In this document: positions 4,162-64,000 of the stretch, piece by piece
Layout of the letters: every line of letters begins with the position of its first letter
How positions within the stretch are numbered: the first letter of the stretch is position 1
Assembly (NCBI GenBank): GCA_017439235.1
Contig: JAFSJN010000005.1
Coordinates: 3,066-67,065 of the forward strand
DNA length: 64,000 nucleotides
Direction: 5' to 3'
From: Paludibacteraceae bacterium
Lineage (GTDB): Bacteria > Bacteroidota > Bacteroidia > Bacteroidales > Paludibacteraceae
The notes under the pieces: model-generated
The model's database searches: none
What the model saw: the letters and a program-made list of their open reading frames with translations, nothing else
Told to the model about the DNA's origin: nothing
Translations under genes and position numbers: made by a program

Positions 4162-4193
4162 CAAAGGTACTGCTTTTTGGTGATACGGGCAAA
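4162..4193 (-). promoter_or_regulatory. Promoter for the acyl-CoA ligase gene
   Basis: caaaggta at 4162-4169 (reverse complement TACCTTTG) and caaa at 4190-4193, 20-nt spacer. Confidence 0.7.
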
Positions 4194-4270
4194 TAAATGG
4201 TATTTGGAATGGCGAGTTGGTATGAAAGTGGCTATTTTGGGGTGGAATATAGGTATTCTGGGGTGAAAAT

Positions 4271-4302
4271 TTTGTGTAATTCACGAAAAAAGTGTAATTT
4301 TG
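4271..4302 (+). promoter_or_regulatory. Promoter for parE
   Basis: TTTG at 4271-4274 and TAATTTTG at 4295-4302, 20-nt spacer. The box lies inside the track ORF extension (4197-4325), which supports ATG 4326 as the real start. Confidence 0.7.
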
Positions 4303-4325
4303 CACTCAAATTAAATTGGCGTATT

Positions 4326-6245: not shown

Positions 6246-6652
6246 TACCTTTGATTCTCTTTATAACCTTAGGACTGACTATCCTCATCCTCTTTGAGTG
6301 GCGAGCTCGTAAGAAGGCGAAAAATACCGATGAAACCGAGCCTTTGAGAACTACTCCCGTAGCGGATGACTCGGGTTGCTGCGGTCAGCACTTGGTGTGC
6401 GAACGGGAGACGCTCCTACAGACCAATGCCGAGATTATCTACTACGACGATGAAGAATTAGATGCCCTCTCCGGCATCCCCTATACCGAGTATACAGCCG
6501 AGCAGGCTGAACAAATCAGGGAGGTGTTTCGCACTATGCAGGAGAAAGATGTGCCCGGTTGGGTGCGCAGTCTGCAGTTGCGCAATATTCAGTTGCCGGC
6601 CGATGTGCGTGAAGAGGCTTTACTCATCGTTGTGGAGCGCCGCAATAAATAG
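6242..6652 (+). CDS. Hypothetical membrane-anchored protein with a GCCGxHLVC cysteine motif
   Basis: 136 aa. Its ATG overlaps the parE stop (ATGA at 6242-6245). It has an N-terminal TM helix ([17 protein letters not shown]) followed by RARKKAK. I recognise no family. Its 3' end overlaps the convergent CPBP gene by 64 nt. Confidence 0.6.
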
Positions 6653-7497
6653 ATGCCCACCATCGTCGCACCCAGACTAACCCATCCTAACCATAGGGTG
6701 TCGGCGGTCCCCAAACTATCCATTTGTTTGATATCCCAACCATTTTGCAATGCCAGGTGATAGAGTAAGGTCACTATGGCGTTGTTGGTGCAGTGCATAA
6801 CGATAGGCACCCATAGACTGCCGCTCCAGGCGAGAGCATAGCCGAAGAGTGCTCCCATCAGCATCCGCGGGATAAAACCGTAGAATTGCACGTGTATGGC
6901 GGAAAAGATAATAGCTGCCAACCAGATAGCTGCGTGGGGCGTACGTTGGTCCTCTCTATCGGAAAAGATGCCCTGCATTACCCCTCTAAAGCAAAACTCC
7001 TCACTTACCGCCGCCAATATGGCTACTACTAACAGGTTGATGACTAAGTTGCCCCAACCGGCAGCGCTGAGCAGTTTCTCGGTCATCTGCATGCCTGCCT
7101 CTTCTTTGGCGCGCATCCATTCTTCTAAGGCACTCAGGGAGGCGGGAAGAGTCATCGCCTGATTCCACGAGCTGATAAGGTTGATGCCCGGCAAGGCAAC
7201 TATCATCAGCACTATAGCGCTAAGCCAGGTCATGGCCGATGCCCCTTTATGGACGTGCAGCCATTCTGCCGGTTGCTCACTCCATATATAGGCGGCTATA
7301 AGTCCGGGCAGGATAAACAGTCCGATATCCTGTGCTGTGACTAACCACCACATAGCGGAGACCGTAGACAGATCTTTTCCGCTGGAGATACAAAAGGCCA
7401 TGCCGACTAAGAAGAGTATACCGAAGCCCAGTATGATACCGAACCATAAAGCCAAGCGCCCGAGGGGCGACAGAGAAGTCCATTTTGATGCTTTCAT
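6589..7497 (-). CDS. CPBP family intramembrane glutamic endopeptidase (CAAX protease-like)
   Basis: This is the C-terminal 302 aa of the 911-aa track ORF, starting at MKASKW (ATG 7497). It is multi-TM and carries the CPBP motifs SEEFCFRG and FSAIH. The upstream part of the track ORF is antisense to typA and runs through two promoters. Confidence 0.85.
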   Translation of the reverse strand: MKASKWTSLSPLGRLALWFGIILGFGILFLVGMAFCISSGKDLSTVSAMWWLVTAQDIGLFILPGLIAAYIWSEQPAEWLHVHKGASAMTWLSAIVLMIVALPGINLISSWNQAMTLPASLSALEEWMRAKEEAGMQMTEKLLSAAGWGNLVINLLVVAILAAVSEEFCFRGVMQGIFSDREDQRTPHAAIWLAAIIFSAIHVQFYGFIPRMLMGALFGYALAWSGSLWVPIVMHCTNNAIVTLLYHLALQNGWDIKQMDSLGTADTLWLGWVSLGATMVGIYLLRRSTTMSKASSRTSAGN

Positions 7498-7501
7498 GCT
7501 G

Positions 7502-7533
7502 CAAAAGTATAAAAAAATTTGCATGTATGCAAA
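7502..7533 (-). promoter_or_regulatory. Promoter for the CPBP protease gene (predicts a leaderless or near-leaderless mRNA)
   Basis: caaaagta at 7502-7509 (reverse complement TACTTTTG) and caaa at 7530-7533, 20-nt spacer. Only 4 nt separate the -7 box from the ATG at 7497. Confidence 0.65.
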
Positions 7534-7549
7534 AAAAAGCGTAACTTTG
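7518..7549 (+). promoter_or_regulatory. Promoter for typA
   Basis: TTTG at 7518-7521 and TAACTTTG at 7542-7549, 20-nt spacer. It overlaps the divergent CPBP promoter. Confidence 0.7.
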
Positions 7550-7572
7550 CACGTTTTTTGGTGTTTTAGAAT

Positions 7573-9381
7573 ATGCAAAAGATTAGAAACATAGCGATTA
7601 TCGCACACGTCGACCATGGTAAGACTACTTTGGTGGACAAAATGTTGTACACGGCTAAGGTGGTACAGGAGTCCCGTCAAGAGGGAGTAGCTAACAAGGA
7701 GTTGATATTGGATAACAATGACTTGGAGCGTGAACGAGGTATCACCATCTTGGCTAAGAATGTAGCTATCGAGTACAAGGGTTACAAGATTAATATCATC
7801 GACACTCCGGGTCACGCGGACTTTGGAGGTGAGGTGGAGCGTGTGCTGAATATGGCAGACGGCGTGTTGCTGCTGGTGGATGCCTTTGAGGGACCGATGC
7901 CGCAGACGCGTTTTGTGTTGCAGAAGGCTTTGCAACTCAACCTCAAACCTATTGTGGTGATCAACAAAGTAGATAAACTCAACTGCCGTCCCGATGAGGT
8001 GCAAGAGGCCGTCTTTGACCTGATGGTTAACCTGGACGCTACGGATGACCAATTGGATTTCCAGACTATCTTCGGTTCGGCTAAGAACGGTTGGATGTCT
8101 ACCGATTGGCGTAAGCCGACGACGGATCTGACAGCCCTCATGGAGGCGATCATTGAGTACATCCCCGAACCGGAAGTATTGGAAGGAACACCTCAGATGC
8201 TGATTACCAGTTTGGACTATAACCCTTATGTAGGTCGTATCGCTATTGGCCGTGTGCACCGTGGTACTTTGCGCGACGGACAAGCCGTGACGCTGGCTAA
8301 GAAAGACGGAGCGCGTATTAAGACTAAGATCAAAGAACTGCACACCTTCCAGGGTATGACGCACGTCAAGACAGACGCCGTCAGCAGTGGTGATATATGT
8401 GCGCTGATAGGTATTGACGGCTTTGAGATTGGTGATACTATCTGCGATATCAACGAGCCGGAGGCTTTGCAACCCATCGCTATTGACGAACCCACTATGT
8501 CGATGGTGTTCACTATTAACGATAGTCCGTTCTTCGGTCAGGAAGGTAAGTTTGTGACCTCGCGTCATATCCATGAGCGCTTGATGAAAGAGTTGGAGAA
8601 GAACCTGGCCTTGCGTGTGGAGAAATCGCCTACCGAAGATGTATGGCACGTATACGGTCGCGGTGTGCTGCACTTGAGCGTACTTATCGAGACGATGCGA
8701 CGCGAGGGATATGAGTTGCAGGTAGGTCAACCGCAGGTTATCATCAAAGAGATTGATGGCGTTAAATGCGAGCCGGTGGAGCAACTGACCGTTAATACTC
8801 CCGAAGAGTGCAGCGGTAAGATTATCGAATACGTCAGCACCCACAAAGGGGAGATGACCCGTATGGAGATGGTCAACGACCGCGTGCAACTGGAGTTCAC
8901 TATTCCTTCCCGCGGTGTCATCGGTATGCGTACGTATGTGATGAATGTCAGTGCCGGTGAGGCTATTATGGCGCACCGCTTCCTGGAGTTCCAACCCTAC
9001 AAGGGCGAGATCGAGAAACGCACCAACGGCAGTCTGATTGCTATGGAGTCGGGTACGGCTTATGCGTACGCCCTGGATAAGTTGCAAGACCGCGGACGCT
9101 TCTTTATCTATCCGCAAGATGAGGTCTATGCCGGTCAGGTAGTAGGTGAGAACTCCAAAGAGGGCGATATCGTCATCAATGTGACCAAGTCGAAGAAACT
9201 GACCAATATGCGTAGTAAATCGGCGGACGATAAGGCCGTCCTGCCGCCTCCTATCATCTTCTCGCTGGAGGAAGCATTGGAATATATCAAAGAGGACGAG
9301 TACGTAGAGGTAACACCTACTCATATGCGTCTGCGCAAAATTATACTGGACGAATTGGAGCGTAAGCGCGCCAATCGCTAA
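7573..9381 (+). CDS. typA: Translational GTPase TypA/BipA
   Basis: 602 aa. AIIAHVDHGKTTLVD, DTPGHADFGGEVER and NKVD G-motifs, with TypA-type C-terminal domains. Confidence 0.96.
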   Translation: MQKIRNIAIIAHVDHGKTTLVDKMLYTAKVVQESRQEGVANKELILDNNDLERERGITILAKNVAIEYKGYKINIIDTPGHADFGGEVERVLNMADGVLLLVDAFEGPMPQTRFVLQKALQLNLKPIVVINKVDKLNCRPDEVQEAVFDLMVNLDATDDQLDFQTIFGSAKNGWMSTDWRKPTTDLTALMEAIIEYIPEPEVLEGTPQMLITSLDYNPYVGRIAIGRVHRGTLRDGQAVTLAKKDGARIKTKIKELHTFQGMTHVKTDAVSSGDICALIGIDGFEIGDTICDINEPEALQPIAIDEPTMSMVFTINDSPFFGQEGKFVTSRHIHERLMKELEKNLALRVEKSPTEDVWHVYGRGVLHLSVLIETMRREGYELQVGQPQVIIKEIDGVKCEPVEQLTVNTPEECSGKIIEYVSTHKGEMTRMEMVNDRVQLEFTIPSRGVIGMRTYVMNVSAGEAIMAHRFLEFQPYKGEIEKRTNGSLIAMESGTAYAYALDKLQDRGRFFIYPQDEVYAGQVVGENSKEGDIVINVTKSKKLTNMRSKSADDKAVLPPPIIFSLEEALEYIKEDEYVEVTPTHMRLRKIILDELERKRANR

Positions 9382-27927: not shown

Positions 27928-28605
27928 TTATCCGTTTATTAACTTATATCCTTTGCCGTGAACGGAGAGAAGCTGTGCTTGCGAACCTTTCAGGTAACTG
28001 CGTAGATGATGGATAAAGACCGATAGGGAACGTGAGGCAAAATAATTATCTGTTTTCCAGACGGACTTGAGTATATGGCTGCGTTCTACAATCTGATTAG
28101 AATGACGGCAGAGAAGTAGTAATATCTCATTCTCATGCGAGCTTAAATGCACTCCGCCCAAGTCTTGATGTACTGAATCAAAAGTTAATCCACCAATCGA
28201 GAATTGTGTTTCGTTTTCTTCTTCATACGTACGAATACGGCGAATGAGCGCGTTAATCTTACATACCAGTACTTCCATAGAGAAGGGCTTAGTGATGTAA
28301 TCGTCCGCTCCGGCTTCGTAACCGGCAATTAAGTCGTCTTGCGTGGCGCGAGCCGAGACTATCACTACGGGGATGCGACGATTGGTCAAGCGTAACTCCT
28401 GCAACATTTCTAAGCCGTTCATGCGCGGCATCATAATGTCCAAAAGCAGCAGGTCGTAATGGGAAGCATTGATCTTCTCAAGGCCTTCGAGGCCGTCCGT
28501 AGCCACATCAACATGGAACCCGCGTGTCCGTAAATCATCGGCCATCAGGGTGCGCACGGTTACGTCATCTTCGCACAATAATATGCTGCAATAGCGTTGC
28601 TCCAT
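27928..28605 (-). CDS. OmpR/PhoB-type response regulator (receiver plus winged-helix DNA-binding domain)
   Basis: 225 aa. Receiver motifs are present (CEDD, LLLLDIMMPRMNG, the conserved K in ITKPF), plus a C-terminal trans_reg_C-like domain. No histidine kinase gene is adjacent. Confidence 0.9.
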   Translation of the reverse strand: MEQRYCSILLCEDDVTVRTLMADDLRTRGFHVDVATDGLEGLEKINASHYDLLLLDIMMPRMNGLEMLQELRLTNRRIPVVIVSARATQDDLIAGYEAGADDYITKPFSMEVLVCKINALIRRIRTYEEENETQFSIGGLTFDSVHQDLGGVHLSSHENEILLLLCRHSNQIVERSHILKSVWKTDNYFASRSLSVFIHHLRSYLKGSQAQLLSVHGKGYKLING

Positions 28606-28623
28606 AGTATTCTATTTCGACTG

Positions 28624-28654
28624 CAAAGGTACAAAAAAAAATGGATATATCAAA
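28624..28654 (-). promoter_or_regulatory. Promoter for the response regulator gene
   Basis: caaaggta at 28624-28631 and caaa at 28651-28654, 19-nt spacer. Confidence 0.6.
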
Positions 28655-28669
28655 AAAATCACACAAAAA

Positions 28670-28701
28670 TTTGCGTATGTGCAATTTTTATTGTATCTTT
28701 G
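28670..28701 (+). promoter_or_regulatory. Promoter for secDF (about 100-nt leader)
   Basis: TTTG at 28670-28673 and TATCTTTG at 28694-28701, 20-nt spacer. Confidence 0.7.
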
Positions 28702-28808
28702 CAGGCTTTTTCGTTGCGTATGCGTGTGCGAACGTAGATAGATGCGTCGCTCAACGCGCGTGACGAGACATAAGTAGAATAGATTAAAATTAAATAAAAC
28801 AACACATT

Positions 28809-49860: not shown

Positions 49861-50298
49861 TTAATCATCGTAGTCCATTCCGATGAGTTGGAAGGACTTA
49901 GTGAACTTCAACTCGACGCGGTTGTTGAGGGTAATCTCATAGTCGTCGCGGTCGACGGAGTACTTGATGATGTAGCAGTCGGGATATCTCTGTCCGGCCA
50001 TCTTAACGATCGGAGCGGGGATGACTGCGGGAGGCACGGGAGCGCCGCTCATCATGTCAACTTTGTCAATTGTGCCGTTGCCGTTAAATTCCCATTTATC
50101 CATGTTGTTCATCGTCACGTCATAGTCGGCAAAAGGACCGAAACCGTCTTGGGTGATAAACATGATTTCTGCGGGATTGGCATGTTGCGTCAGTATCTCC
50201 TGAGCTTTTGCAGGGAGTTGCTCAAACGAAATGGGGCTGTCGTCTGCGCAGGCTGTAATAGCAAGCGCGCAGAGTACGGTAAAGAGTAATTTTCTCAT
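49861..50298 (-). CDS. PepSY-like (DUF2874-type) small lipoprotein
   Basis: 145 aa. Signal plus lipobox LAITAC. The two-lobed LPAKAQEIL...YDV / ...YEITLNNRVELKF pattern matches my recollection of the Bacteroidales PepSY-like beta-lactamase-inhibitor-like family. Confidence 0.7.
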   Translation of the reverse strand: MRKLLFTVLCALAITACADDSPISFEQLPAKAQEILTQHANPAEIMFITQDGFGPFADYDVTMNNMDKWEFNGNGTIDKVDMMSGAPVPPAVIPAPIVKMAGQRYPDCYIIKYSVDRDDYEITLNNRVELKFTKSFQLIGMDYDD

Positions 50299-50329
50299 GC
50301 TTCAAGTTGTTTAATGTTTAATTTGGCTG

Positions 50330-50361
50330 CAAAGGTACTGCTTTTTTGCGATATGTGCAAA
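50330..50361 (-). promoter_or_regulatory. Promoter for the PepSY-like gene
   Basis: caaaggta at 50330-50337 and caaa at 50358-50361, 20-nt spacer. Confidence 0.7.
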
Positions 50362-50402
50362 TTTTTCTTAATTTCTATGCTAAAAAAAAAATCCAAACTT
50401 CA

Positions 50403-50468
50403 ACGACTCAACTACGAGACTGGAACGAGGGAATCACGAGACATTAACGAGGCATTAACGAGAGTAAA
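50403..50468. repeat. Six helically phased 11-bp units with an invariant ACGA(G/C) core
   Basis: ACGAC at 50403, then ACGAG at 50414, 50425, 50436, 50447 and 50458, spaced exactly 11 nt apart. The units are acgactcaact / acgagactgga / acgagggaatc / acgagacatta / acgaggcatta / acgagagtaaa. Confidence 0.85.
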
Positions 50469-50510
50469 ATGTAAAAATCTGTTCATAAGTTACTTAAAAA
50501 TGAAGAAAAA

Positions 50511-50542
50511 TTTGCGTATATGAAAAAGTTTTTGTATTTTTG
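50511..50542 (+). promoter_or_regulatory. Promoter for the giant ORF
   Basis: TTTG at 50511-50514 and TATTTTTG at 50535-50542, 20-nt spacer. The TTG used as the track ORF start (50540) lies inside the -7 box. Confidence 0.7.
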
Positions 50543-50569
50543 CGGCCAATTTTTAATGTACCTATTAAA

Positions 50570-53500
50570 ATGGCTTGTAAAATGCACATGAAAAGCATGA
50601 GAAATATACGTAGTTGGTCAGTATGCGCTTTGATGTGTGTGGCGCTTTTTTGCTCTCCTGCGCGCATGCATGCTGACGGATGGACGCCGACGGATGGTGG
50701 TTTGGTAGTGAACCTTGAGCAAGGTGATCGCTTCCTGCTGTCGGTAATGGTGGATCATGATAATAACCCGTCCACACCGGATCGAGAGTATTTCGTTGTC
50801 AATTATTCGCGATATGAGGGCGATGACTATTTCCATTACAAGAAAAATGATAAATTCATATATGCGGAAGGTAAACACCTCAAGTTAGCGCAACAGGATG
50901 CCCATGCGACGGAGCCGTCGGAGATGTCCATCTGGTCGGTAGGTGCACCCTTGACACGTGTAATCGGCGGTAAGGATTATTCGTTGGGCGCGAATGCCGG
51001 CCATGTGTATACGATCTGGAATGATGGTAAGACGCTGAGAATGAACAATACCAGCTACCAGTTCTTTGGCGATCTGACGAGTGATTACAACTACAAAGAT
51101 GCTGCAGATGTGGTATTTGTCATTCCGACAACTCATACCGGTATCACTTCTTTTGACCCGAATAAGACCTTAAAAGAGATATATAAACGCGAGGATCAAG
51201 ATGCGACTACTGGTTTGATCAATGGTAAGATCGGAAAGGGTTTCTTGGGCATGACCTACCGCGAGGTATATATGTTGGATATCCCTAAACAGAACAACCC
51301 TATATCGTACACGAATGCATCGCTGGTCTGCTTTAATACTACTGCCAAGGATACAACCTATGCAAAACCCAATGCCGGTTCCGGCCTTAAGGTGGGAAGC
51401 GGTATGCCAGTATATGCCTTTGCGGATCCCAAGCATAGAGCGACGGTCCGTACGCTCTTCCGTCTCTATTTGCTGGATAAACCGTTCAATTATTGCAGCA
51501 GTTATTTCTTTGCGACGGATGGGCAGGACTTCATGAACTACCGCTATACGCAGAGCTTGCCCGGAGATAGTACGGCGAAGAAGAAAATCTACACCATCGA
51601 TTGGATGAGCCCGATGAAGCGTGTCGGTACCTCTGATACCTTCAAAACGGACTTTATGACGGTGCCTACGGATGATAGTACGTGTTACTATGTCGGATAC
51701 AAAAACGATTTCCGTACCACGGGAGAGTCTTTAGGTTCGAATACCGCCAAGTCGGCCTTCAAGAAGATACGTACCTTACCGCTGACGACTTTACCGTCAC
51801 CTTTCGTGGTGCCGGCTGGTGCGTATGGACAGATGGTCGTAGATACGAGTTCAACGGATAACAACTTAGGCGTCAAGTTCGAACCCGCGGGCTATTTCCT
51901 GAAGGTTAGTTCCGGTAAAAACGTCAGCATGCATGATAACGGCGATGGTACCTGGATAACCGAAGAGATGTGGACGATTAACGAGGAATGGGTAGGAAAA
52001 ACTATCAAAGCCACGCTGATGACCGGCGCCAGTTTTAGCGAGACCGACCCGGGAGCGGATGTGGCAGGATGGAGTATTGACGTATCCGGATCGGATGTGC
52101 CGGTAAAGGATCACAGCGATTGGACTCCGGTAGGTCAGTCCGGTTATGCGCAGATCACGACCAGTAGTAATGAAGCAAACGGAGATATGGTCTTTATCTT
52201 AGCGGATCAAACGAAATGGCTTCGCTATGACAACAACGGTTTAGTAGGCTTGGAGATGCCGCTCCAGTATCCTTTGGAAGGTAAAAGTTCTGTAACGCTG
52301 ATGGCGCCTCGTATCAAACCGGGATATACGTTCTACGGTTGGTGCGAGAAAGCCGATGGTTCGAGTGATACCTTAAAGGTGGGCAGTACTTATACATTGA
52401 CAGGAACAGGCGCCGACACGCTATATGCACTTGCTTCGTATGAAGGTACGTTGCATATTGCGATATCGTTTAAAAAGGACGACGGCAAGCGTTACTTCCT
52501 TACCCACCCGGGAACGGGTACCGGTTTCCGTTATGCCCGTGCCCGTCATTTCGATAGTTGGGTAAATACCTGGCAGGGCATGGAGAACGCGCAAAACCTC
52601 AACCCGAACTACCTCAGTACATATGAGGTACGGCACCCGATAGCGAAGATCAAGAAGAAAGACGACGGCGTTATATCCGACATATCTCCCAAAGAGCATG
52701 TGTTGGACCCGCGAAGCTACACGATGAAGGGGCAGACGGACTCGCTGACGTTCTACGAGAACTTCCACCCGACCCATGATGAGTACCTCGGTTTGTACTA
52801 TCAGAGTCCAAACACTATCTTGGCGAACAACACCTGGGCGGGCTTATTCACAACGACCAGTACCGCTCCTACCAGTTGGCCGACCTATTTAGTACCGTAT
52901 ATCGAAAGTGCTAAAATCAAATCCGAGCGGTATGTAGAGGAGTATGATAAGGAGAATAAACCCGATTCGCTGATTCTCAAAAGGCGTATTAATTACACGG
53001 AGCCGTATGTGAAATATGACACTGTAAATGATCAGTTTAACGGACAAGCCGATTCGGCGACTGCCACGGATTTCCAGCTGACGGCTGTATCTGTATCGGA
53101 CGAGCACTATGTCCTGCTGCCGGATACGGCATATGCGTGGCAGGACACGATCACCTTCGATTACCATCAGGCGAGACAGACGACGGAAGATATATGGTCG
53201 GCATTGGTCGGTAAGCAGTTGATGGCGGTAATGGTAGTAGATCGCGATACGGTTTATTTCCACCCGAACCGCAAGAAGCATATCACGGACCCGAACGACC
53301 TGTATCTGTCTCCGGAGTTCCGTATAACGCAGCTCTTTAAATGGATTCCGGATAGCCGTGTAACGACGGTAGCGGAAGAGAACCGTGTGGCCCATTCGAC
53401 AACCGATCACTACTGGCATCATACTGTTACCAGCGGTATGAACAGTCCGATGGACGTGAAGGATAAGAGCGGTAACTATATCGATATCGTCGATACGTTC

Positions 53501-56500
53501 AGTATTACCCTCAGTCAAGGCGCTATCAGTAAGATCAAGAAATACTACGGTCGCTGGGAGAAGCAAGGCGAAGATGACGGTTTGACGGTTAGTGCCGACG
53601 GTTTGACGCGTCAGCGCAATATTATCGTCAAGACCAAGACCTATCACTATGGTGAAGAGCAGACACGTATGGTGCTCAAGCCGGAGAAAGAGAGTTATGA
53701 TTTCGGTCCGCTGGCAAACCAATCGCAGAAGATCAATTTCATTCTCACCCGCGTACATGTCCATGACTTATTGGATGCGCAGGGTAATTTTGTGCGTGAA
53801 GATATCATCTCCATCGATACTTTGACAACGCAGTTAGGTATGCAGCCGGGTCAGTGTACGTTTAGGGTTGGTACCGCCTTTGAAAAGGTAGAGGCTGAAA
53901 CAAGGGATAGTCATGCTACAGTTCGCGTAATAAACGATAATACCTCGGGTATCAACTACGATACGTTGGTTGTGACGGGATACCTATATGACAACAAACC
54001 TCAAACGTGCGATGTACGTATACCGTTGATGCAAGCGCCTCTGGAAGGAAATGATTTGTTGTGGTCGGTTATGCATAACGGTCAGCGTTATTTCATCATG
54101 GCAGGAAAGGGGACGACCCAAGACAGTCTTATCTTCCGTCAATACACCCAACGCGGCAACACGCTTTATAAGCGCATCGGAGGAAATCAGCTGATCATGG
54201 GAGCTAAAGACAAGACGAACCGCGATGAAGGATACATCACACCTTGGCAATTTACCTATGTCGATAAGGAAAATCACCAGTTCACGCTCAAGATCGGATT
54301 AACGAGCGATACGCTTCTCTTCAACATAGCAAGTGCGGCCACTCCTGCTGTTGGTGATTCCGCGAGTACATTGACGTATGTGTTTACGGATGTGTACGCA
54401 AACGACAACGCGAACTACGAGGAGCAGGTGAAACTCAAGTACGGACCGAATAATTGGCTGAAGTTCAACGGTTCGGCACTGGAGTTGACGACAAATGAAT
54501 TGGAGGCGGACACTTTCTCGTTGGCTTACCCGCTGCTGGAGTTCAACCTGCTCAATAATGGTACGTACCCCAGCCAAAATCAAGCTGCGTTCGGTTATAA
54601 TGCTACGGCATCGGCATCGATCACAACGGCGTACCAAGGATACTGCGAGTACTCCACGCTGCTGGATAATAAATTGACGTATTTCGCACGTGAGTCGCGA
54701 AACACACGTGAAGCTTTGACCAGTACGGATGCGGCCTATCGCTGGAAGACGACTTGTAAGATCGATACGTTGCGTGACAGGCGCACAACTACGGAGAGTG
54801 GTTTGACATTTAGTAATAGCAGTAATAGTTTTACCTCCACGATCACGCCTACGGGCTTGAGTCCGCGCAATGTGAAGGACGCAAGTGGCAACCATATCGA
54901 TATTGTGGATACGCTGTGTGTGACGCTCGGTCTGCAAACGGATGCTCCTTCGTATCGGTTTAAAGGCGATTGGAGCGGATTCAAGCGCATTGATGACGGT
55001 AATCTGAAGATACCTTTGGTACGTAAAACTTATCATGAGGCAAGTTTCGACTCATTGATCTGCGAGGAAGTGACGAAAGCCGAACGACACTCATTCCCGG
55101 CGGTACTTACAGAAGGTGTCAACGATACGGTTCTGCTGAAATTCAGCACGATCCGTCGTGAGGGTACCCGTTTGCTGAATACAGCGAACGAAGTGATTTC
55201 CGTCATCAGTTCAACATCCTCCTATGTGACGCGTGATATCAAGTATAAAAATGACAGTAGTACCGACAGTATCAAGGGTATGCACCTCAACAACAAGGAC
55301 TTAGCCGAGGTGCGTCTGATGGATGAATACGGTAATACACCTACGTGGTGCAAGATCAAAGCGAAGGGCGATAGTACGGTGACGATACAGTGTTTATCGG
55401 ACGGTGTGCGTTCTCCGCGTTCAACGGAACTCTATCTCGTCTATGTCATCACCATAGAGGAGAACATGCGCATTTTGACCTACCATGTGACCATATCGCA
55501 AGCCAGCCATTTCGATTATGCCAATAACCAGCGGTTGATTCATACCTCCGGTGCGTCAGGTGACCCAATTGGTGCATACGGTTTGCAGCAGGTGCATCAG
55601 AACAAGCGCATCCTTTATTACTATCCGGAACAAGATGTTGAATTACCGGTTCGTGAACGTAACTTCTACGGATGGTGGCGTTGGTACAGAGAAGGACTCG
55701 ACGTGAAGGGCGATTCCGTCTCGGATTCCGATGTACCTGATTCGATATGGCGTTTACCGCCTCGCAATGTAGGTAAATACAACTACCCATACCGTATCAT
55801 CGGCGACTCGGTGATGTTAAAGAAAAAGGATGGGACGGACTCTGTAAAGGTGTTGGTAACGATGGGTCGCTGGACGGTATTCCACTACAGGTCAGAAGAC
55901 TACGGCGGATCGAAGAAAGATCCACCTGCTAAGAACCCGCGTGTAGCGCCGCCGATCACCGAGTTGGGATTAGCTACCAAGCCGACCTTGACTTACGCTG
56001 TCGATATCAGTAACTACTACGATAATCTGCCGATGTCCTTATCGCAGAAGAACCAAGTCGATACGGCCTTGTTGGATACGATTCTGGAGATTAAAGAACC
56101 GACCCTTTCGCTGCGCGAAGTGTTTGAACTGCACCCGTGGACAGAGATGGCAGACACGCTGAATCATTATAAGAGTCTGAGAACGACAAACGACGAGGGT
56201 GAGTATGAGTTAGAGAATGAGCATTATATGGAGGATCATGTAGTCATGGCGCCTACGGGCAATAAACTGTTGCTCTCTACGGAACAACGCTACAACGTTA
56301 ATAATGTTCATGAAGGCGGTTCCTCGGAGTCCTTGTTGGGATATTACATGCTCGACGATAACTGGTGGAAATGGAGCGCCAACAGAGTGCGTCAGGATAC
56401 GATGATCTGGTGCGGCGGTTGGGATGCCGACTGCTTATGGTACACCTATAACCCCCGCTCCAAGACATACACAAGGTGCAATTTATCCATCACCAAGGCC

Positions 56501-59500
56501 GATGACTTCCTGCAAGTGCCGGTGAGGAACAATGTGGATACGGTTTATTATTGTTTGCGTGCACGCAGTAAGAAATCAACCTTCTCCACCGATGGGGACA
56601 ACGCTACAGTAACTACGGTAGAGGGCGACAGCATGTTCAACATCTGCCGTTACAAAGTCTGCTATCACTATCCGTATAAATACGGACCGAGAATGGAGAC
56701 GATATTGAATAATATCCCCAAAGCGTTGATTACCAACGATGAGATCGAGCAGAAGTATGATGTATTGGAGCGGTTGAACTTCGATTACAATGAACCCGGT
56801 CCCGGCTACACCGTTTATCCGCACCCGCTGCCTTGGGGCGATGCATCGTACGGTTATACCTATCCGGAGACCTCGGATCTGCCGCATAACCGCCTTCACA
56901 AAGAGACCGACTTCCCGAACCACGGCGAGTACGGTCTGATCAACCGCTTCCCCTACACCTCCTACTGGAATAAGATGGAGCAGCATGGCGGTGCCGAAAA
57001 AGGTTACATGATTTACTGCGACGGTATGTCTTCGTCCGGTCAGGTAGCCGCCCTCTCGCTCTCTACCGTCCTTTGTTCGGGTCAGAAGATGTTCCTCTCT
57101 GCTTATGTAGGTAACCCGAGTAACCAAACCGGAAAAGCGAATCCGAACTTTATTTTCTCCATACAGGGTAAGACGGATGATATGTTGGATTGGGAAGACA
57201 TCACGACCTATATAACCGGCGATATAGAGCCGGCGACCAGGTGGTATCAGATCCTTATTCCGATTAACCACACCCGTTCCCACAAAGAGGAGTACGAACA
57301 TTTCCGTATTCGTATCTATAACTTAGCGTCGAATTTCGACGGAAACGACTTCATCATCGACGACCTGTGCGTCTTTGCTACCAAACCGCCGTTGATCGCT
57401 TATCAGGCCAATACGGCATGTAAGGAGGAAGATTCTGAAAAGGATACACACGTGATCATGCGTATTGACTACCAGGGTATCCCTTCCGATGATGAGTATA
57501 ACAACGACACCGTTTACTATACGGTCCGTAAAATTCACGGCGATACAAGTTTCATAGCGCTGACCGATCATTATTTGGGCGAGCAGACATACGGTGGTGC
57601 GGATAAGGATACCCCGAGTGTGTACGGTAAGTTGTATATCCCGGCAAAAAACTATGTACCGACAAGCGAAGACTCGGTCTTCGTTAACCTGAACGACTTG
57701 TTAGACCGCTTCGATGAGACCTATAAAGCATATAAAGCGCATGAAGAAGACCCTGCGCTACCGGAGGTGGATATCTTCCGGGAAGGCTATATCTATGAAA
57801 CATTGGAGGGCATCAGTCGTCCGGTGAAGTATGTGATACACAACGCGCTGATGGATCCGGAAGATACGATCACGGTGCATATATCCGGTGAAGTCAGGGA
57901 ATTGCTAAATAGTATCTGCGGTATGACGAGCCATTTGCACGTGAGCAACCGGATGGTGCTCGAACTGAACGGTCTGGAGAACCCCCATACGGAAGTAACT
58001 GGTCTATGCGTCAACTCGACCTATGACATCAGTCTGCGCGTGAAAGGTTCGCTTTATCTGGACAGCGTGGCTCCGATTGACCTCAACGGCTCGTGTATCA
58101 ACGACTGGTTGCTCTACGGCGATACGGCGGATGCGTCGAGCAATGAACGGTACGGCTACTACTACAGCGATATCAAGAAGGTGATCACCGAGATCCTGCG
58201 TACGGAGCCGATGTCCTACAGAACGAACAGGAACCAGTTTGCGCCGAACCTCTCGTCCATCAATAAGAGTGATTTAAGGTATTATGCTGCCGGCAAGAAA
58301 TTCAAGCAATCCGGGCTGGATCCGTACACTCTCATCTCGGATTTGGTGAAGAAAGGTTTCCTCACGCTCTATAAGTCGAAGATCACGACGACGGTGACTA
58401 CCGGCGACTCGGCGAAATACGTCATCTTCCCGATTGTAGGAACCGGTACGGACGCGCTCAACAAAGCGAATGTAGAGGTTTGTCCGCTGCCAATCGTCGT
58501 CAAACTCAAACCGGATGAGTCAGCGGCCGGTGTGCCGTTGATGATAGGTGGTTTGCATCGTGATACGACGGAAATTTCCAAACCTATTGAGGTGCTGATG
58601 TCGGAGAAAGCAGCGAACGAAGGATTTAAGTTGATAGTTGATTCCATTATGCCCCTTGTCGGTATCAAAAATATCACGCTTCGTTCGACCAATGACCCGA
58701 ACTTCCGCGAAGGAGTACACTCGCTGCGCTTATTACCGGATATCTCGTATCCGACATCGGGTACTTATTACACAAAGGGTGATAGTATAGACTTTTCTCC
58801 GGCTCCTGGCAGTTATCACATGCAACCGGGTTATAGTTATACTTTTAATGTTGTGATGCAGACGTTTGGCGGTTTGGATACCTTAGTCGGTGGTTGCGCC
58901 GTAGGTACGATACCGTTTATTCTCTCCGTCATGCCCGACTACCTGCGTTGGGATCCGCAGTCTGCACAAAGCAACGAGTGGAATAATGCCGATAACTGGA
59001 TAGGTGTTACGAAAGAGAATGTGCCCATCCATGAGGATGCCCACTATGCCCCGATGGCCGAAACGTATGTGGTTATTCCTCAAGTGGAGGCCGGTCTGCC
59101 TTATCCTGTAGTGCCCCCGTTGCCAACCGTATGGAAAGACTCGGTACAGAAGGTGAACTTTGAGTACAACAACTGTAATGTGATTCGTTTCTTGCCGGGT
59201 GCTGCGATGGGTCAGCAGCAAAGGATGCGTTATAGCGATGCGGTTATCGATATGGAGATGCCGCAACAAAAATGGGCGTTCCGTGCAGCTCCGGTAACCG
59301 GTATGCTGAGTGGAGATATCTATATGTCGAACGTCGACCTCAACTGGGCATCCAACCCGTGGAAGGTGGCTGAGTTTGATGCCAGTGGTCGTTCGTATAA
59401 GACAGGTAACGGATCGTTCTGGCTGTCGGTTTATAGTCGCAATACGATTCATCAAACCGAAGATGAGACGGAGGCGCGCTCGGCAAAAGCAGACTGGTCA

Positions 59501-60733
59501 AAAGTAACAAATGGTCTTAATCTCTCGTTGCCGGCCGGACAGGGATATGCCGTATATGCGCGTACCAAATCCGGCAAAGACGCTGTAGTACGTCTGCCTA
59601 AGCATGACGATATCTACTATTACTACGGCTCGTATGGCGAGACCCTCTATGACCACTATGTGAACGAATTGGAAACGGCGCGTAGCACGAATGCGGCACC
59701 CAGAACAGCCGGTAAATTGGCGTTCCATGAGGACAGCGAGGGGTATACCATGAGCAATGATAACTCGGTATCCACGACGGGCTTCGTATTCGGCAATCCC
59801 ACAATGGGTTATATTGATATATGGGGCTTCATTGATGACAATTGTCTGGTAGAGGAATTCGGTTATTTGGACGAGAGTGGTGCGGCCAGTATCTATCGGA
59901 CTGTTAGCAGGGAAGCGGCGATGGCCTCCACGGATACGATTATTGAGCAGAAGCGCTACTTGCCGCCGATGCGCTCCATCATGGTGCAGAAGTCGTCAGC
60001 GGCTACTTCACTTCCTGTGACGCTCAATTCCAACCGCGTGGTGACAGATCCAAGTCAGGTAGTTCCCTCTGTTCGATGTGGCGGCGGAGATGACCAAAGT
60101 CTGGCTCAAACTCCCCAACGCGGCGATGCTGCCGTTTTGCGAAAAGGTATTATGACCGTCACGGCTATTAACCCCTGCTCGCCGCGATGCACTTCGTATC
60201 TGTTGCTCGGTCAGGGTTATCACGCCGATATACTGTCCGGAGAGGATGCCTTATTGACGACCCTCAATATCGATAACTTCTCCACGACCGGTACTCCGAC
60301 TACACCTTTTAATATATACGCGAAGGAGGATAGTTGTGGATTGAGTATTGACCTTAGGGACGAGATTGTCAATGTACCGATATCGTTCTATATGAGTAAG
60401 ATGACGTACGACAATGTGACTCATCTGTGGTTTACAGGTGTAAATGCTATTGACGGACCGTTGGTTCTTTACGATGCACAGACAGACACCGAGCGTGCGA
60501 TTATCGATGGTATATGCCTGGATATCGCTACTCCGAAGACCAATCACGAGACACGCTACTATATCCGTCGCCGCGGATGGACTCCGGATAGCGGTTGGGG
60601 AAGCGGAGTAACTACCGACATACGCCCCGTATCTGCAGAAACGAATCAGACGATGAAGATTATTCACGAAGGTCATGTACTGATCATCCGTAATGGTCAA
60701 GTATTTACCATGATGGGACAACAAGTAAGATGA
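50570..60733 (+). CDS. Giant secreted/surface protein of unknown family (~3,387 aa)
   Basis: Uninterrupted 10.2-kb frame. The first ATG after the promoter is 50570, with in-frame alternatives at 50582, 50588 and 50597. Signal peptide MKSMRNIRSWSVCALMCVALFCSPARMHA. Only patchy resemblance to known modules (see findings). Confidence 0.85.
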   Translation: MACKMHMKSMRNIRSWSVCALMCVALFCSPARMHADGWTPTDGGLVVNLEQGDRFLLSVMVDHDNNPSTPDREYFVVNYSRYEGDDYFHYKKNDKFIYAEGKHLKLAQQDAHATEPSEMSIWSVGAPLTRVIGGKDYSLGANAGHVYTIWNDGKTLRMNNTSYQFFGDLTSDYNYKDAADVVFVIPTTHTGITSFDPNKTLKEIYKREDQDATTGLINGKIGKGFLGMTYREVYMLDIPKQNNPISYTNASLVCFNTTAKDTTYAKPNAGSGLKVGSGMPVYAFADPKHRATVRTLFRLYLLDKPFNYCSSYFFATDGQDFMNYRYTQSLPGDSTAKKKIYTIDWMSPMKRVGTSDTFKTDFMTVPTDDSTCYYVGYKNDFRTTGESLGSNTAKSAFKKIRTLPLTTLPSPFVVPAGAYGQMVVDTSSTDNNLGVKFEPAGYFLKVSSGKNVSMHDNGDGTWITEEMWTINEEWVGKTIKATLMTGASFSETDPGADVAGWSIDVSGSDVPVKDHSDWTPVGQSGYAQITTSSNEANGDMVFILADQTKWLRYDNNGLVGLEMPLQYPLEGKSSVTLMAPRIKPGYTFYGWCEKADGSSDTLKVGSTYTLTGTGADTLYALASYEGTLHIAISFKKDDGKRYFLTHPGTGTGFRYARARHFDSWVNTWQGMENAQNLNPNYLSTYEVRHPIAKIKKKDDGVISDISPKEHVLDPRSYTMKGQTDSLTFYENFHPTHDEYLGLYYQSPNTILANNTWAGLFTTTSTAPTSWPTYLVPYIESAKIKSERYVEEYDKENKPDSLILKRRINYTEPYVKYDTVNDQFNGQADSATATDFQLTAVSVSDEHYVLLPDTAYAWQDTITFDYHQARQTTEDIWSALVGKQLMAVMVVDRDTVYFHPNRKKHITDPNDLYLSPEFRITQLFKWIPDSRVTTVAEENRVAHSTTDHYWHHTVTSGMNSPMDVKDKSGNYIDIVDTFSITLSQGAISKIKKYYGRWEKQGEDDGLTVSADGLTRQRNIIVKTKTYHYGEEQTRMVLKPEKESYDFGPLANQSQKINFILTRVHVHDLLDAQGNFVREDIISIDTLTTQLGMQPGQCTFRVGTAFEKVEAETRDSHATVRVINDNTSGINYDTLVVTGYLYDNKPQTCDVRIPLMQAPLEGNDLLWSVMHNGQRYFIMAGKGTTQDSLIFRQYTQRGNTLYKRIGGNQLIMGAKDKTNRDEGYITPWQFTYVDKENHQFTLKIGLTSDTLLFNIASAATPAVGDSASTLTYVFTDVYANDNANYEEQVKLKYGPNNWLKFNGSALELTTNELEADTFSLAYPLLEFNLLNNGTYPSQNQAAFGYNATASASITTAYQGYCEYSTLLDNKLTYFARESRNTREALTSTDAAYRWKTTCKIDTLRDRRTTTESGLTFSNSSNSFTSTITPTGLSPRNVKDASGNHIDIVDTLCVTLGLQTDAPSYRFKGDWSGFKRIDDGNLKIPLVRKTYHEASFDSLICEEVTKAERHSFPAVLTEGVNDTVLLKFSTIRREGTRLLNTANEVISVISSTSSYVTRDIKYKNDSSTDSIKGMHLNNKDLAEVRLMDEYGNTPTWCKIKAKGDSTVTIQCLSDGVRSPRSTELYLVYVITIEENMRILTYHVTISQASHFDYANNQRLIHTSGASGDPIGAYGLQQVHQNKRILYYYPEQDVELPVRERNFYGWWRWYREGLDVKGDSVSDSDVPDSIWRLPPRNVGKYNYPYRIIGDSVMLKKKDGTDSVKVLVTMGRWTVFHYRSEDYGGSKKDPPAKNPRVAPPITELGLATKPTLTYAVDISNYYDNLPMSLSQKNQVDTALLDTILEIKEPTLSLREVFELHPWTEMADTLNHYKSLRTTNDEGEYELENEHYMEDHVVMAPTGNKLLLSTEQRYNVNNVHEGGSSESLLGYYMLDDNWWKWSANRVRQDTMIWCGGWDADCLWYTYNPRSKTYTRCNLSITKADDFLQVPVRNNVDTVYYCLRARSKKSTFSTDGDNATVTTVEGDSMFNICRYKVCYHYPYKYGPRMETILNNIPKALITNDEIEQKYDVLERLNFDYNEPGPGYTVYPHPLPWGDASYGYTYPETSDLPHNRLHKETDFPNHGEYGLINRFPYTSYWNKMEQHGGAEKGYMIYCDGMSSSGQVAALSLSTVLCSGQKMFLSAYVGNPSNQTGKANPNFIFSIQGKTDDMLDWEDITTYITGDIEPATRWYQILIPINHTRSHKEEYEHFRIRIYNLASNFDGNDFIIDDLCVFATKPPLIAYQANTACKEEDSEKDTHVIMRIDYQGIPSDDEYNNDTVYYTVRKIHGDTSFIALTDHYLGEQTYGGADKDTPSVYGKLYIPAKNYVPTSEDSVFVNLNDLLDRFDETYKAYKAHEEDPALPEVDIFREGYIYETLEGISRPVKYVIHNALMDPEDTITVHISGEVRELLNSICGMTSHLHVSNRMVLELNGLENPHTEVTGLCVNSTYDISLRVKGSLYLDSVAPIDLNGSCINDWLLYGDTADASSNERYGYYYSDIKKVITEILRTEPMSYRTNRNQFAPNLSSINKSDLRYYAAGKKFKQSGLDPYTLISDLVKKGFLTLYKSKITTTVTTGDSAKYVIFPIVGTGTDALNKANVEVCPLPIVVKLKPDESAAGVPLMIGGLHRDTTEISKPIEVLMSEKAANEGFKLIVDSIMPLVGIKNITLRSTNDPNFREGVHSLRLLPDISYPTSGTYYTKGDSIDFSPAPGSYHMQPGYSYTFNVVMQTFGGLDTLVGGCAVGTIPFILSVMPDYLRWDPQSAQSNEWNNADNWIGVTKENVPIHEDAHYAPMAETYVVIPQVEAGLPYPVVPPLPTVWKDSVQKVNFEYNNCNVIRFLPGAAMGQQQRMRYSDAVIDMEMPQQKWAFRAAPVTGMLSGDIYMSNVDLNWASNPWKVAEFDASGRSYKTGNGSFWLSVYSRNTIHQTEDETEARSAKADWSKVTNGLNLSLPAGQGYAVYARTKSGKDAVVRLPKHDDIYYYYGSYGETLYDHYVNELETARSTNAAPRTAGKLAFHEDSEGYTMSNDNSVSTTGFVFGNPTMGYIDIWGFIDDNCLVEEFGYLDESGAASIYRTVSREAAMASTDTIIEQKRYLPPMRSIMVQKSSAATSLPVTLNSNRVVTDPSQVVPSVRCGGGDDQSLAQTPQRGDAAVLRKGIMTVTAINPCSPRCTSYLLLGQGYHADILSGEDALLTTLNIDNFSTTGTPTTPFNIYAKEDSCGLSIDLRDEIVNVPISFYMSKMTYDNVTHLWFTGVNAIDGPLVLYDAQTDTERAIIDGICLDIATPKTNHETRYYIRRRGWTPDSGWGSGVTTDIRPVSAETNQTMKIIHEGHVLIIRNGQVFTMMGQQVR

Positions 60734-63666: not shown

Positions 63667-64000
63667 GGGGATAATTGGTTTTGACAGCAGGTAGAATGGG
63701 TATGTAAGCACGCCGAGCATGGATAACGCTCGTAAATCGGGTCCAAACAATTAACTGGCAACTATGACTATGCTCTCGCTGCTTAATCGAAGTACAGTAG
63801 ATTAGCCTTATTTCGGCACCAGGTGCTGAATCGAGACATCGCTCCAAGCCGATCCTTGCGGCTGAATGGGTCAAGCGGTGCGGAAATAGCAGGGATAGTC
63901 AGCGCAGGCTGCGATGCGCTGATGAAGATGAAGCAGATAAGGTAACGGTTGGTGGCTTGGGTCTTGCCGTTGCTCGAAAACGAAGGCCAAGATAAGCGTG
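63667..64000 (+). ncRNA. ssrA: tmRNA (ssrA), 5' ~330 nt; the 3' end lies beyond the window
   Basis: The 5' end GGGGATAATTGGTTTTGACAGC matches the tmRNA acceptor/D-arm pattern GGGG...GGnTTnGAC. The tag reading frame is GGC AAC TAT GAC TAT GCT CTC GCT GCT TAA at 63757-63786, giving (A)GNYDYALAA. No T-arm or CCA end appears before position 64000. Confidence 0.88.

What the first reader, a model, noticed from the sequence alone, without database searches (positions are those of the whole stretch)
50403..50468. Six ACGAG motifs at exact 11-bp spacing between the divergent PepSY-like and giant-ORF promoters
ACGAC at 50403 is followed by ACGAG at 50414, 50425, 50436, 50447 and 50458. The six cores therefore sit about one helical turn apart, on one face of the DNA. 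The 6 nt between cores vary. With unbiased base composition, five further ACGA tetramers at fixed offsets have a chance probability near (1/256)^5.

The invariant core with divergent spacers argues for selection on the core rather than recent slippage.

The array lies about -80 to -145 from the predicted giant-ORF transcription start, and a similar distance from the divergent PepSY-like promoter. An A10 tract (50382-50391) lies beside it.

An 11-bp head-to-tail periodicity is the classic arrangement of sites bound by winged-helix OmpR/PhoB-type regulators, and also of iteron-like arrays.

Inference: a multimeric regulator-binding array controlling one or both divergent genes.
Basis: partly seen in the sequence, partly recalled or inferred. 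Interest (0 to 1): 0.65.

Follow-up and report, generated by a model that had tools for sequence, protein, structure and literature searches.

The report
Mobile-island-derived 11-bp ACGAG repeat array
Six 11-bp repeats with an ACGAG core sit between two gut-bacterium promoters, but they are a recent, species-specific copy of a repeat array from a small phage-like island, not an ancestral control site of the neighbouring genes.

Summary
ACGAC/ACGAG cores lie at 50403, 50414, 50425, 50436, 50447 and 50458, exactly 11 bp apart. The array is unique in the window and lies midway between two canonical Bacteroidota promoters.

The array is absent upstream of every orthologue found: four PepSY relatives and three giant-ORF relatives. 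One of these is a sister lineage with the same gene order and both promoters conserved. There, window 50371-50469 is replaced by about 210 bp of unrelated DNA.

The array is collinear with an ACGAG array on a strain-specific, phage-like island of the same species. Spacers match in register at 15-17 of 30 positions (P about 2-4e-4). The 28 nt to the left match at 19 of 28. On the island the array lies 18 bp before a small-gene operon. Two island variants keep all 25 core bases while 12 of 30 spacer bases differ. More distant island relatives carry other 11-bp repeats at the same position.

Best reading: a relocated protein-docking array of mobile-element origin. Its binder is unknown and any effect on the flanking genes is unproven. 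A link to an OmpR-type regulator has no support. Interest is moderate to low.

The parts
50403..50468 (+). Array of six 11-bp units: ACGACTCAACT, ACGAGACTGGA, ACGAGGGAATC, ACGAGACATTA, ACGAGGCATTA, ACGAGAGTAAA. The core is ACGAG(R). There is also a 22-bp super-period.
   Evidence: One strain contig (L006) carries an extra 22-bp copy of units 2-3. The units are collinear with the island arrays of L196 and L198.
50375..50402 (+). 28-nt 'head' directly left of the array. It resembles the 28 nt left of the island array in L196, which there form the 3' end of a 150-aa gene.
   Evidence: 19 of 28 bases are identical in fixed register; P is 4e-4 against shuffles, and 1.6e-5 of real-sequence windows reach 19. 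A free local alignment of the flank alone was not significant.
50382..50391 (.). A10 tract whose length varies from A7 to A10 among strain contigs.
   Evidence: Alignment A1. One- and two-base deletions appear in other metagenomes.
50371..50469 (.). Lineage-specific segment (head, A10 tract and array) between the two conserved promoters. Sister lineage L193 has about 210 bp of unrelated DNA here.
   Evidence: flanking genes 92-95% nucleotide identity. Homology with L136 ends at 50370, and homology with L011 starts at about 50470.
50331..50362 (-). Promoter of the PepSY-like gene: -7 box TAccTTTG (plus-strand 50331-38) and -33 TTTG (plus-strand 50359-62).
   Evidence: Read. The sequence is conserved in L136, L192, L193 and L194. 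Hundreds of metagenome contigs pile up on 50319-50369, as expected for a generic Bacteroidales promoter consensus.
50511..50542 (+). Promoter of the giant ORF: -33 TTTG at 50511-14, a 20-nt spacer, and -7 TAttTTTG at 50535-42.
   Evidence: Read. It is conserved in L193 and L011. Contigs pile up on 50506-50556.
49861..50298 (-). PepSY-like lipoprotein gene (145 aa), divergent from the giant ORF.
   Evidence: Pfam PF11396, E = 2e-13. Its neighbours differ in L136, L192 and L194.
50588..60733 (+). Giant ORF (about 3381 aa) with a signal peptide and a weak Listeria-Bacteroides repeat match. The start codon is uncertain between 50582 and 50597, because ATG 50588 reads AAG in two strains.
   Evidence: Relatives are found only in Paludibacteraceae metagenome genomes.
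27928..28605 (-). Orphan OmpR-family response regulator, RprY-like.
   Evidence: Pfam Response_reg plus Trans_reg_C. NCBIfam RprY scores 233.6 bits, below its cut-off of 370. Neighbours are an OmpA-like gene, a tRNA and SecDF. There is no ACGAG array at 28606-28808.

Best explanation
The array is a relocated copy of a cis-acting direct-repeat array that belongs to a small phage-like mobile island of the same species.

On the island the array sits between a 150-aa gene and a 113-aa gene, 18 bp before the second gene's start codon. About 95 bp of such an element now fills the space between the PepSY-like and giant-ORF promoters in this lineage. That piece comprises the last 28 nt or so of the upstream island gene plus the array. 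Since arriving it has changed by 11- and 22-bp duplications.

Inferred mechanism: each ACGAG(R) core, one per helical turn and all on one face of the DNA, is a half-site for a protein that binds head to tail and cooperatively. If so, the array acts as an operator, iteron or centromere-like docking platform. The binder is more likely encoded by the island than by the host.

At this locus the array is not an ancestral operator of either neighbouring gene. If it is occupied it could still affect the two promoters, which lie 41-43 bp away on each side.

Shown: the array is real, it is specific to this lineage, it is homologous to the island arrays, and the core is kept while spacers change. Inferred: protein binding, the identity of the binder, and any effect on expression.
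For: - The array is real and unique in the window.
- The core is kept and the spacers vary.
- It is absent from sister lineage L193 despite the same gene order and conserved promoters. It is also absent from the other orthologous promoters.
- A second array lies in the same genome contig about 54 kb away, inside a strain-specific island. That island encodes an HNH protein, a WYL_2 protein and an HTH_36 / DnaD-O-like initiator.
- The window array is collinear with the island arrays. Spacers match in register at 17 of 30 with L198 and 15 of 30 with L196 (P = 2e-4 and 4e-4). The left flank matches at 19 of 28.
- Two island variants, whose flanking gene is 91% identical, keep 25 of 25 core bases while 12 of 30 spacer bases differ (Fisher P = 2e-4).
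- Island relatives at about 50% identity carry other 11-bp direct repeats at the same position: CCGTACnnAAA three times, and CCTATGTTTAA twice plus degenerate units. This is the pattern expected when a site co-varies with its cognate binding protein.
- In three viral contigs, variable-spacer ACGAG-N6 arrays lie inside O-like / DnaD-like initiator genes followed by DnaB-like helicase genes. Such arrays can therefore be true protein-binding iterons.
- In a capped scan of species genomes, loci with variable-spacer ACGAG arrays are almost all Bacteroidota: 13 of 31 Bacteroidota loci against 1 of 89 others (P = 3e-8; 3e-4 if repeat families are counted once).
Against: - No binding protein is identified. 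The island proteins next to the array have no Pfam, PHROG or PDB match.
- The island's own initiator gene carries different iterons, GCGGA-N5-TCCGC at a 21-bp period. On the island the ACGAG array is therefore probably not the replication origin.
- Island variant L196 has four identical units, as expected from plain slippage.
- One strain has the chromosomal array but lacks the island at that site (L004/L195). An island-encoded binder would be missing there unless the island sits elsewhere in that genome.
- Homology of the 28-nt head rests on an in-register test. A free local alignment was not significant.
- Only about 105 kb of this species' genome could be inspected.
Confidence: 0.5

Rival explanations
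1. Dedicated host operator or upstream activating site. A host winged-helix OmpR/PhoB-type regulator, such as the RprY-like orphan at 27928-28605, would bind the six direct repeats and control the giant ORF, the PepSY-like gene, or both.
For: Direct repeats spaced 11 bp centre to centre are the classic site architecture of this regulator family; ArcA, for example, uses 2-5 such repeats (PMC3798270, listed). The array lies symmetrically between two promoters. An OmpR-family regulator is encoded in the window. The core is conserved.
Against: The array is absent from all orthologous promoters, including the syntenic sister lineage whose promoters are conserved. The regulator's own promoter region has no ACGAG array, although RprY of P. 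gingivalis was tested for binding to its own promoter by gel shift (PMC3646045). The array is homologous to a mobile-island array. Its position at -80 to -147 is far for a class I or class II activator. No binding motif for RprY is published in the paper read.
Confidence: 0.12
2. Neutral minisatellite. An 11/22-bp tandem repeat that grows and shrinks by slippage, binds no protein and has no function, either here or on the island.
For: Unit number is polymorphic: a 22-bp duplication in L006. Units 4 and 5 differ by one base, and there is a 22-bp super-period. L196 has four identical units. Plain 11-bp tandem repeats containing ACGAG occur in many phyla. The array is dispensable in the sister lineage.
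Against: Mismatches avoid the core within the array. The same holds between orthologous island arrays: 0 of 25 core against 12 of 30 spacer differences. Other 11-bp repeats occupy the same island position in distant relatives. Loci with variable-spacer arrays are concentrated in Bacteroidota.
Confidence: 0.22
3. RNA-level element. The repeats would act in a 5' leader, as an unstructured, purine-rich docking site for an RNA-binding protein or the ribosome that tunes translation of the downstream gene.
For: On the island, and in several other Bacteroidales loci, the arrays lie 18-61 nt before a start codon. They are co-oriented with the genes in 7 of 7 co-directional intergenic regions (P = 0.008). 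The plus strand is predicted to be unstructured (z = +1.27). This resembles the TAACTGA repeats found close to start codons (PMC4679880).
Against: In the window the array lies upstream of the conserved -33/-7 promoter of the giant ORF. No metatranscriptome contig covers 50372-50623, although that is weak evidence. There is no Rfam match.
Confidence: 0.08
4. Active replication or partition site: iterons of an origin, or a parC-like centromere, working in the chromosome.
For: The repeats are phased next to A-rich DNA. ACGAG-N6 arrays lie inside phage initiator genes. From general knowledge, the parC site of plasmid R1 is built from 11-bp repeats.
Against: No rep or par gene lies next to the array; its neighbours are lipoprotein and surface-protein genes. 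The locus is an ordinary chromosomal region. The array is single-copy in metagenome assemblies. The island's initiator gene has its own, different iterons.
Confidence: 0.03

Closest known systems
Origin iterons inside phage initiator genes (lambda O / 'replisome organizer' type)
   Same: Several direct repeats in helical phase with a conserved core. In viral contigs L148, L140 and L166, ACGAG-N6 arrays with variable spacers lie inside DnaD-like / O-like initiator genes that are followed by DnaB-like helicase genes.
   Different: The window array has no initiator gene around or beside it. The related island's initiator gene carries different iterons, GCGGA-N5-TCCGC four times at a 21-bp period, followed by an AT-rich run.
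Operators of OmpR/PhoB-family response regulators (pho boxes, ArcA direct-repeat arrays)
   Same: Head-to-tail repeats spaced 11 bp centre to centre, several per site, close to promoters (PMC3798270, listed; otherwise general knowledge).
   Different: The array is not conserved at orthologous promoters. It lies 41-43 bp beyond each -33 box rather than overlapping or abutting it. No regulator link was found, and its origin is a mobile element.
parC centromere / operator of plasmid R1, bound by ParR (general knowledge, not tested here)
   Same: Contiguous 11-bp direct repeats on a mobile element, directly in front of an operon, bound cooperatively and also acting as the operator.
   Different: No ParM or ParR relatives were detected among the island proteins by Pfam or PHROG. 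The window copy has no adjacent operon of that kind.
Dispersed intergenic TAACTGA direct repeats of Beggiatoaceae, Cyanobacteria and some Bacteroidetes (PMC4679880)
   Same: Short direct repeats scattered in intergenic DNA, often just before start codons, next to genes of unrelated function, with an unknown binder. The ACGAG arrays of other Bacteroidales genomes behave similarly.
   Different: Those are contiguous heptamers with no spacer. Here a 5-6-nt core alternates with a 5-6-nt variable spacer at an exact 11-bp period, and the window copy lies upstream of a promoter.
Ordinary bacterial minisatellite (variable-number tandem repeat)
   Same: Head-to-tail units, copy-number polymorphism between strains, and recent unit duplications.
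   Different: Divergence is confined to spacer positions, both within the array and between orthologous arrays.

Membership tests
OmpR/PhoB-type response-regulator operator | Tandem direct repeats of a 5-7-bp half-site at 10-11 bp centre to centre | tested here: met
   Six cores at exactly 11 bp.
OmpR/PhoB-type response-regulator operator | Site overlaps or abuts the -35/-33 region, or lies within reach of RNA polymerase at the regulated promoter | tested here: inconclusive
   The array ends 43 bp before the giant-ORF -33 box and starts 41 bp beyond the PepSY -33 box. It is therefore about -80 to -147 from each predicted start.
OmpR/PhoB-type response-regulator operator | Site conserved at orthologous promoters of the regulon | tested here: not met
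   Absent in L193, L136, L192, L194, L011 and L013-15.
OmpR/PhoB-type response-regulator operator | A cognate regulator binds the site | not testable with these tools
   An RprY-like regulator lies 22 kb away. Its own promoter region has no ACGAG array.
Replication-origin iterons | Several phased direct repeats with a conserved core | tested here: met
   The same motif class lies inside phage initiator genes.
Replication-origin iterons | Initiator (rep) gene enclosing or adjoining the repeats | tested here: not met
   The neighbours are the PepSY-like gene and the giant ORF. On the island the initiator gene has different internal iterons.
Replication-origin iterons | Adjacent AT-rich unwinding element | tested here: inconclusive
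   An A10 tract and A-rich flanks are present, but the whole intergenic region is AT-rich promoter DNA.
Dispersed repeat family of mobile-element origin | Two or more homologous copies at unrelated loci of one genome or pangenome | tested here: met
   The window/L137 copy and the L196 island copy lie on the same contig. L198 and L199 are island variants. Collinearity gives P = 2-4e-4.
Dispersed repeat family of mobile-element origin | Presence/absence difference between close lineages with conserved flanks | tested here: met
   L193 compared with the window.
Dispersed repeat family of mobile-element origin | Many copies per genome | tested here: inconclusive
   Array depth equals flank depth in four metagenomes at 85% likeness or more. 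Only about 105 kb of this species was read. Paludibacter sp. has at least 4 copies of its own variant.
Neutral minisatellite | Copy-number polymorphism between strains | tested here: met
   L006 has 8 units; the other eight contigs aligned have 6.
Neutral minisatellite | Divergence spread evenly over unit positions | tested here: not met
   1 of 30 core against 15 of 36 spacer mismatches. Between island orthologues, 0 of 25 against 12 of 30.
Structured cis-regulatory RNA | Match to a known family, or a fold more stable than shuffled sequence | tested here: not met
   No credible Rfam match. Fold z-scores are +1.27 and -0.13.

The most novel reading that the evidence does not exclude
ACGAG-N6 arrays may form an undescribed class of helically phased docking repeats in Bacteroidales. 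They would be spread by phage-like islands and recognised by an element-encoded protein. The window copy would then wire that protein to the promoter region of a 3381-aa surface protein, so that a mobile element gains control of a host surface or adhesion gene through a captured operator.
Probability: 0.12. Interest if true: 0.7.

Novelty: new variant of a known kind. Interest (0 to 1): 0.38.

Why it matters
If the array really docks a protein, this would be a clear case of a mobile element's cis-site being copied into a host promoter region. That is one route by which new regulatory links can arise quickly in gut Bacteroidales. It would also point to an uncharacterised DNA-binding specificity: ACGAG once per helical turn.

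If the array binds nothing, the finding is an ordinary, slippage-prone repeat at a fast-evolving spacer between two promoters.

Either way, the array should not be annotated as a conserved operator of the PepSY-like gene or the giant ORF.

Tried and rejected
- Rfam, on the whole window at gathering threshold and on the locus at E up to 10, gave nothing credible at the array.
- RNA folding of both strands showed no excess stability.
- The sigma-70 and terminator scan was uninformative, because Bacteroidota promoters are not covered.
- blastn of 50370-50500 against plasmids and phages gave only chance-level hits.
- Metatranscriptome contigs show low-level expression of the PepSY-like gene and the giant ORF. 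None covers the array, and no 5' ends could be called.
- The orientation statistic first looked like 10 of 10. Divergent intergenic regions are uninformative by construction, which leaves 7 of 7 co-directional cases.
- A free local alignment of the flanks against the island was not significant. Only the in-register comparison was.
- The idea that the island's initiator uses the ACGAG array as its origin was dropped after finding other iterons inside that gene.
- Scans of viral contigs for the head-plus-array pattern, and for the island's 150-aa protein, found nothing.
- PDB sequence searches with the island's 78-aa and 113-aa proteins gave no hits.
- The literature gave no published RprY motif, and a search for Bacteroidales intergenic repeats was unproductive.
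- The 239-aa lipoprotein gene next to the PepSY-like gene is unrelated to the AraC gene of other species and to the PepSY neighbour in L136.

Full report
**Observation**

The sequence shows ACGAC at 50403 and ACGAG at 50414, 50425, 50436, 50447 and 50458, exactly 11 bp apart, with an A10 tract at 50382-50391. ACGAG-N6-ACGAG occurs four times in the 64-kb window, all at this site, against 0.08 expected. A relaxed scan over periods 6-15 finds no other such array. Tandem Repeats Finder reports periods of 11 and 22.

A random-sequence null is too easy, so I asked whether differences between units avoid the core. There is 1 mismatch in 30 core cells and 15 in 36 spacer cells. That gives P = 2e-4, or 2e-3 after correcting for register. 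Units 4 and 5 differ by one base and the array has a 22-bp super-period. Part of the similarity is therefore recent duplication, and the test overstates the number of independent events.

**Context**

The left neighbour (49861-50298, minus strand) is a PepSY-like lipoprotein gene. The right neighbour is an ORF of about 3381 aa with a signal peptide. Its relatives are all from Paludibacteraceae metagenome-assembled genomes of ruminant and other gut samples.

Both promoters are of the Bacteroidota type. The PepSY promoter has TAccTTTG at plus-strand 50331-38 and TTTG at 50359-62. The giant-ORF promoter has TTTG at 50511-14 and TAttTTTG at 50535-42. Independent support comes from metagenome contigs laid on the region. 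Hundreds to thousands pile up on exactly 50319-50369 and 50506-50556, the generic promoter consensus. Over the array, depth equals that of the single-copy flanks. The array thus lies 41-43 bp from each -33 box. No Rfam family, RNA structure or RNA contig covers it.

**Within the species**

Nine strain contigs keep the array. There are no substitutions in the 30 core positions and two in the 36 spacer positions. One contig (L006) has an extra 22-bp copy of units 2-3, and the A tract ranges from A7 to A10. The array is therefore stable but prone to slippage.

**Orthologous promoters**

- PepSY orthologues at 79, 74 and 74% identity sit in other gene neighbourhoods with a homologous promoter but no array.
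- Giant-ORF orthologues at 83% and 53% identity have an AraC-family gene upstream and no array.
- Most telling is contig L193, a sister lineage. Its PepSY protein is 97% identical and its flanking genes are 92-95% identical at the nucleotide level. It has the same gene order, and both promoters align well. Yet window 50371-50469 is replaced by about 210 bp of unrelated sequence holding a single ACGAGAG.

The array-bearing segment is therefore a lineage-specific filling of a fast-changing spacer between the promoters.

**Origin**

Extending the window by 10 kb through strain contigs uncovered a second array in the same genome contig, about 54 kb away (L196:6057-6111). Its sequence is ACGAGTCATTT four times followed by ACGAGAGTATT.

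It lies in a strain-specific island that another strain lacks at this site (L195). The island encodes an HNH nuclease, a WYL_2 protein, a winged-helix HTH_36 protein with weak DnaD-like / O-like initiator matches, and several small ORFs. There the array sits between a 150-aa gene and a 113-aa gene, 18 bp before the second gene's ATG.

An island variant (L198/L199) has a 150-aa protein 91% identical to that of L196. At the same place it carries ACGAGACTTGA, ACGAGACTTGA, ACGAGACTTTA, ACGAGTCATTT, ACGAGAGCATT.

Window units 2-6 are collinear with these arrays. Spacers match in register at 17 of 30 with L198 and 15 of 30 with L196 (P = 2e-4 and 4e-4). The 28 nt left of the array match the 3' end of the island's 150-aa gene at 19 of 28 in register (P = 4e-4). 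A free local alignment of that flank alone was not significant. I conclude that about 95 bp of an L196-like island, the gene tail plus the array, was copied into the chromosome.

**Is the array functional where it comes from?**

Three observations suggest that it is.
- The two island variants keep all 25 core bases while 12 of 30 spacer bases differ (P = 2e-4).
- Island relatives at about 50% identity have other 11-bp direct repeats at the same position: CCGTACnnAAA three times, and CCTATGTTTAA twice plus degenerate units. This is the pattern of a site that changes together with its cognate binding protein.
- In three unrelated viral contigs, ACGAG-N6 arrays with variable spacers lie inside DnaD-like / O-like initiator genes that precede DnaB-like helicase genes. 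This is the classic origin-within-the-initiator-gene layout.

Against a replication role on this island, its own initiator gene contains different iterons. These are GCGGA-N5-TCCGC four times at a 21-bp period, followed by an AT-rich run. On the island the ACGAG array is more likely an operator or another docking site. None of the adjacent small proteins has a recognisable fold family.

**Wider picture**

A capped scan of one genome per species for four ACGAG-N6 units returned 120 loci. Most are plain tandem repeats with identical spacers, from many phyla.

Loci with strongly variable spacers are almost all Bacteroidota: 13 of 31 Bacteroidota loci against 1 of 89 others (P = 3e-8; 3e-4 when repeat families are counted once). 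They form small families within single genomes. Paludibacter sp., for example, has four copies sharing a block of about 75 bp. They lie next to genes of unrelated function, including PFK, a 2-hydroxyacid dehydrogenase, RF3 and alr-murF. They are co-oriented with the genes in all seven co-directional intergenic regions.

This looks like a family of dispersed repeats, not a regulon. The scan was truncated and no control pentamers could be run, so this part is suggestive only.

**The named regulator**

The gene at 27928-28605 encodes an orphan OmpR-family protein. It is closest to RprY but scores below that model's cut-off. Its own promoter region has no ACGAG array. The RprY paper I read defines no binding motif. 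Nothing ties this regulator to the array.

**Verdict**

The best explanation (confidence about 0.5) is a relocated, mobile-island-derived, helically phased protein-docking array that is young at this locus.

A dedicated host operator for the two flanking genes is unlikely (about 0.12). A purely neutral minisatellite remains a serious rival (about 0.22).

The finding is a new variant of a known kind (iteron or operator-like direct repeats) and is of moderate to low interest. Interest would rise if an island protein were shown to bind the array and to affect the giant surface-protein gene.

Noticed in passing
L196:4825-4945 (same species; island initiator gene L196:4588-5421): GCGGAWTYAGTCCGC occurs four times at a 21-bp period, followed by an AT-rich run, inside the HTH_36 / DnaD-O-like gene. 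This looks like a lambda-O-style origin within the initiator gene.
   Followed up: partly
L196:~3100-7740 compared with L195 (about 2-7 kb upstream of the window's start, next to smpB): This is a strain-variable island site. One strain carries a phage-like module (HNH, WYL_2, initiator, small ORFs). Another carries AbiEii/DUF6922, AAA_14/DUF4143 and Peptidase_C10 genes. The shared right boundary is near L196:7740.
   Followed up: partly
L028, L078, L116, L125 (Bacteroidales RUG14814), L063, L100: Dispersed elements of about 190 bp, built from convergent 11-bp arrays: CAGAG-N6 three or four times, ACGAG-N6 four or five times, then CTCGT-N6 four or five times. All six lie in divergent intergenic regions between unrelated genes. 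They look like miniature inverted-repeat elements.
   Followed up: partly
L153, L182/L157, L188 (viral contigs): One phage family has four or five contiguous ACGAGAY-N4 units plus scattered ACGAGAT motifs. These lie in a noncoding early region of about 900 bp that also holds 40-bp tandem repeats, next to HNH endonuclease and anti-restriction genes.
   Followed up: partly
window 50319-50369 and 50506-50556: Both promoter cores match hundreds to thousands of unrelated gut-metagenome contigs at 85% likeness or more. An extended promoter consensus (AAAAAGCAGTACCTTTGC-like) therefore appears to be highly stereotyped in these bacteria.
   Followed up: no
window 50588-50590: The ATG used as the giant-ORF start reads AAG in strain contigs L001 and L005. 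The true start is therefore probably ATG 50582 or 50597.
   Followed up: no
L013:790-880: Three 22-bp tandem repeats (GGTAACAATACGTAAAAATTT) lie just upstream of the promoter of the AraC-family gene that precedes the giant-ORF orthologue in a related species.
   Followed up: no
L013-L015, L011: In other Paludibacteraceae an AraC/HTH_18 regulator gene lies directly upstream of the giant-ORF orthologue and in the same direction. This species has lost that arrangement.
   Followed up: partly
window 253-711 and 63667-64000: smpB lies at the left end of the window, and the tmRNA gene, cut at its 3' end, lies at the right end about 63 kb away.
   Followed up: no
L071, L109, L110, L127 (Paludibacter sp.): The four array copies share a tail, TCGAsnTTTCATTTTGTcAAA. 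They lie at a similar distance from the downstream gene: 173-200 bp to the ATG and 138-166 bp to a TAnnTTTG box. The space upstream of them varies from 101 to 438 bp.
   Followed up: partly
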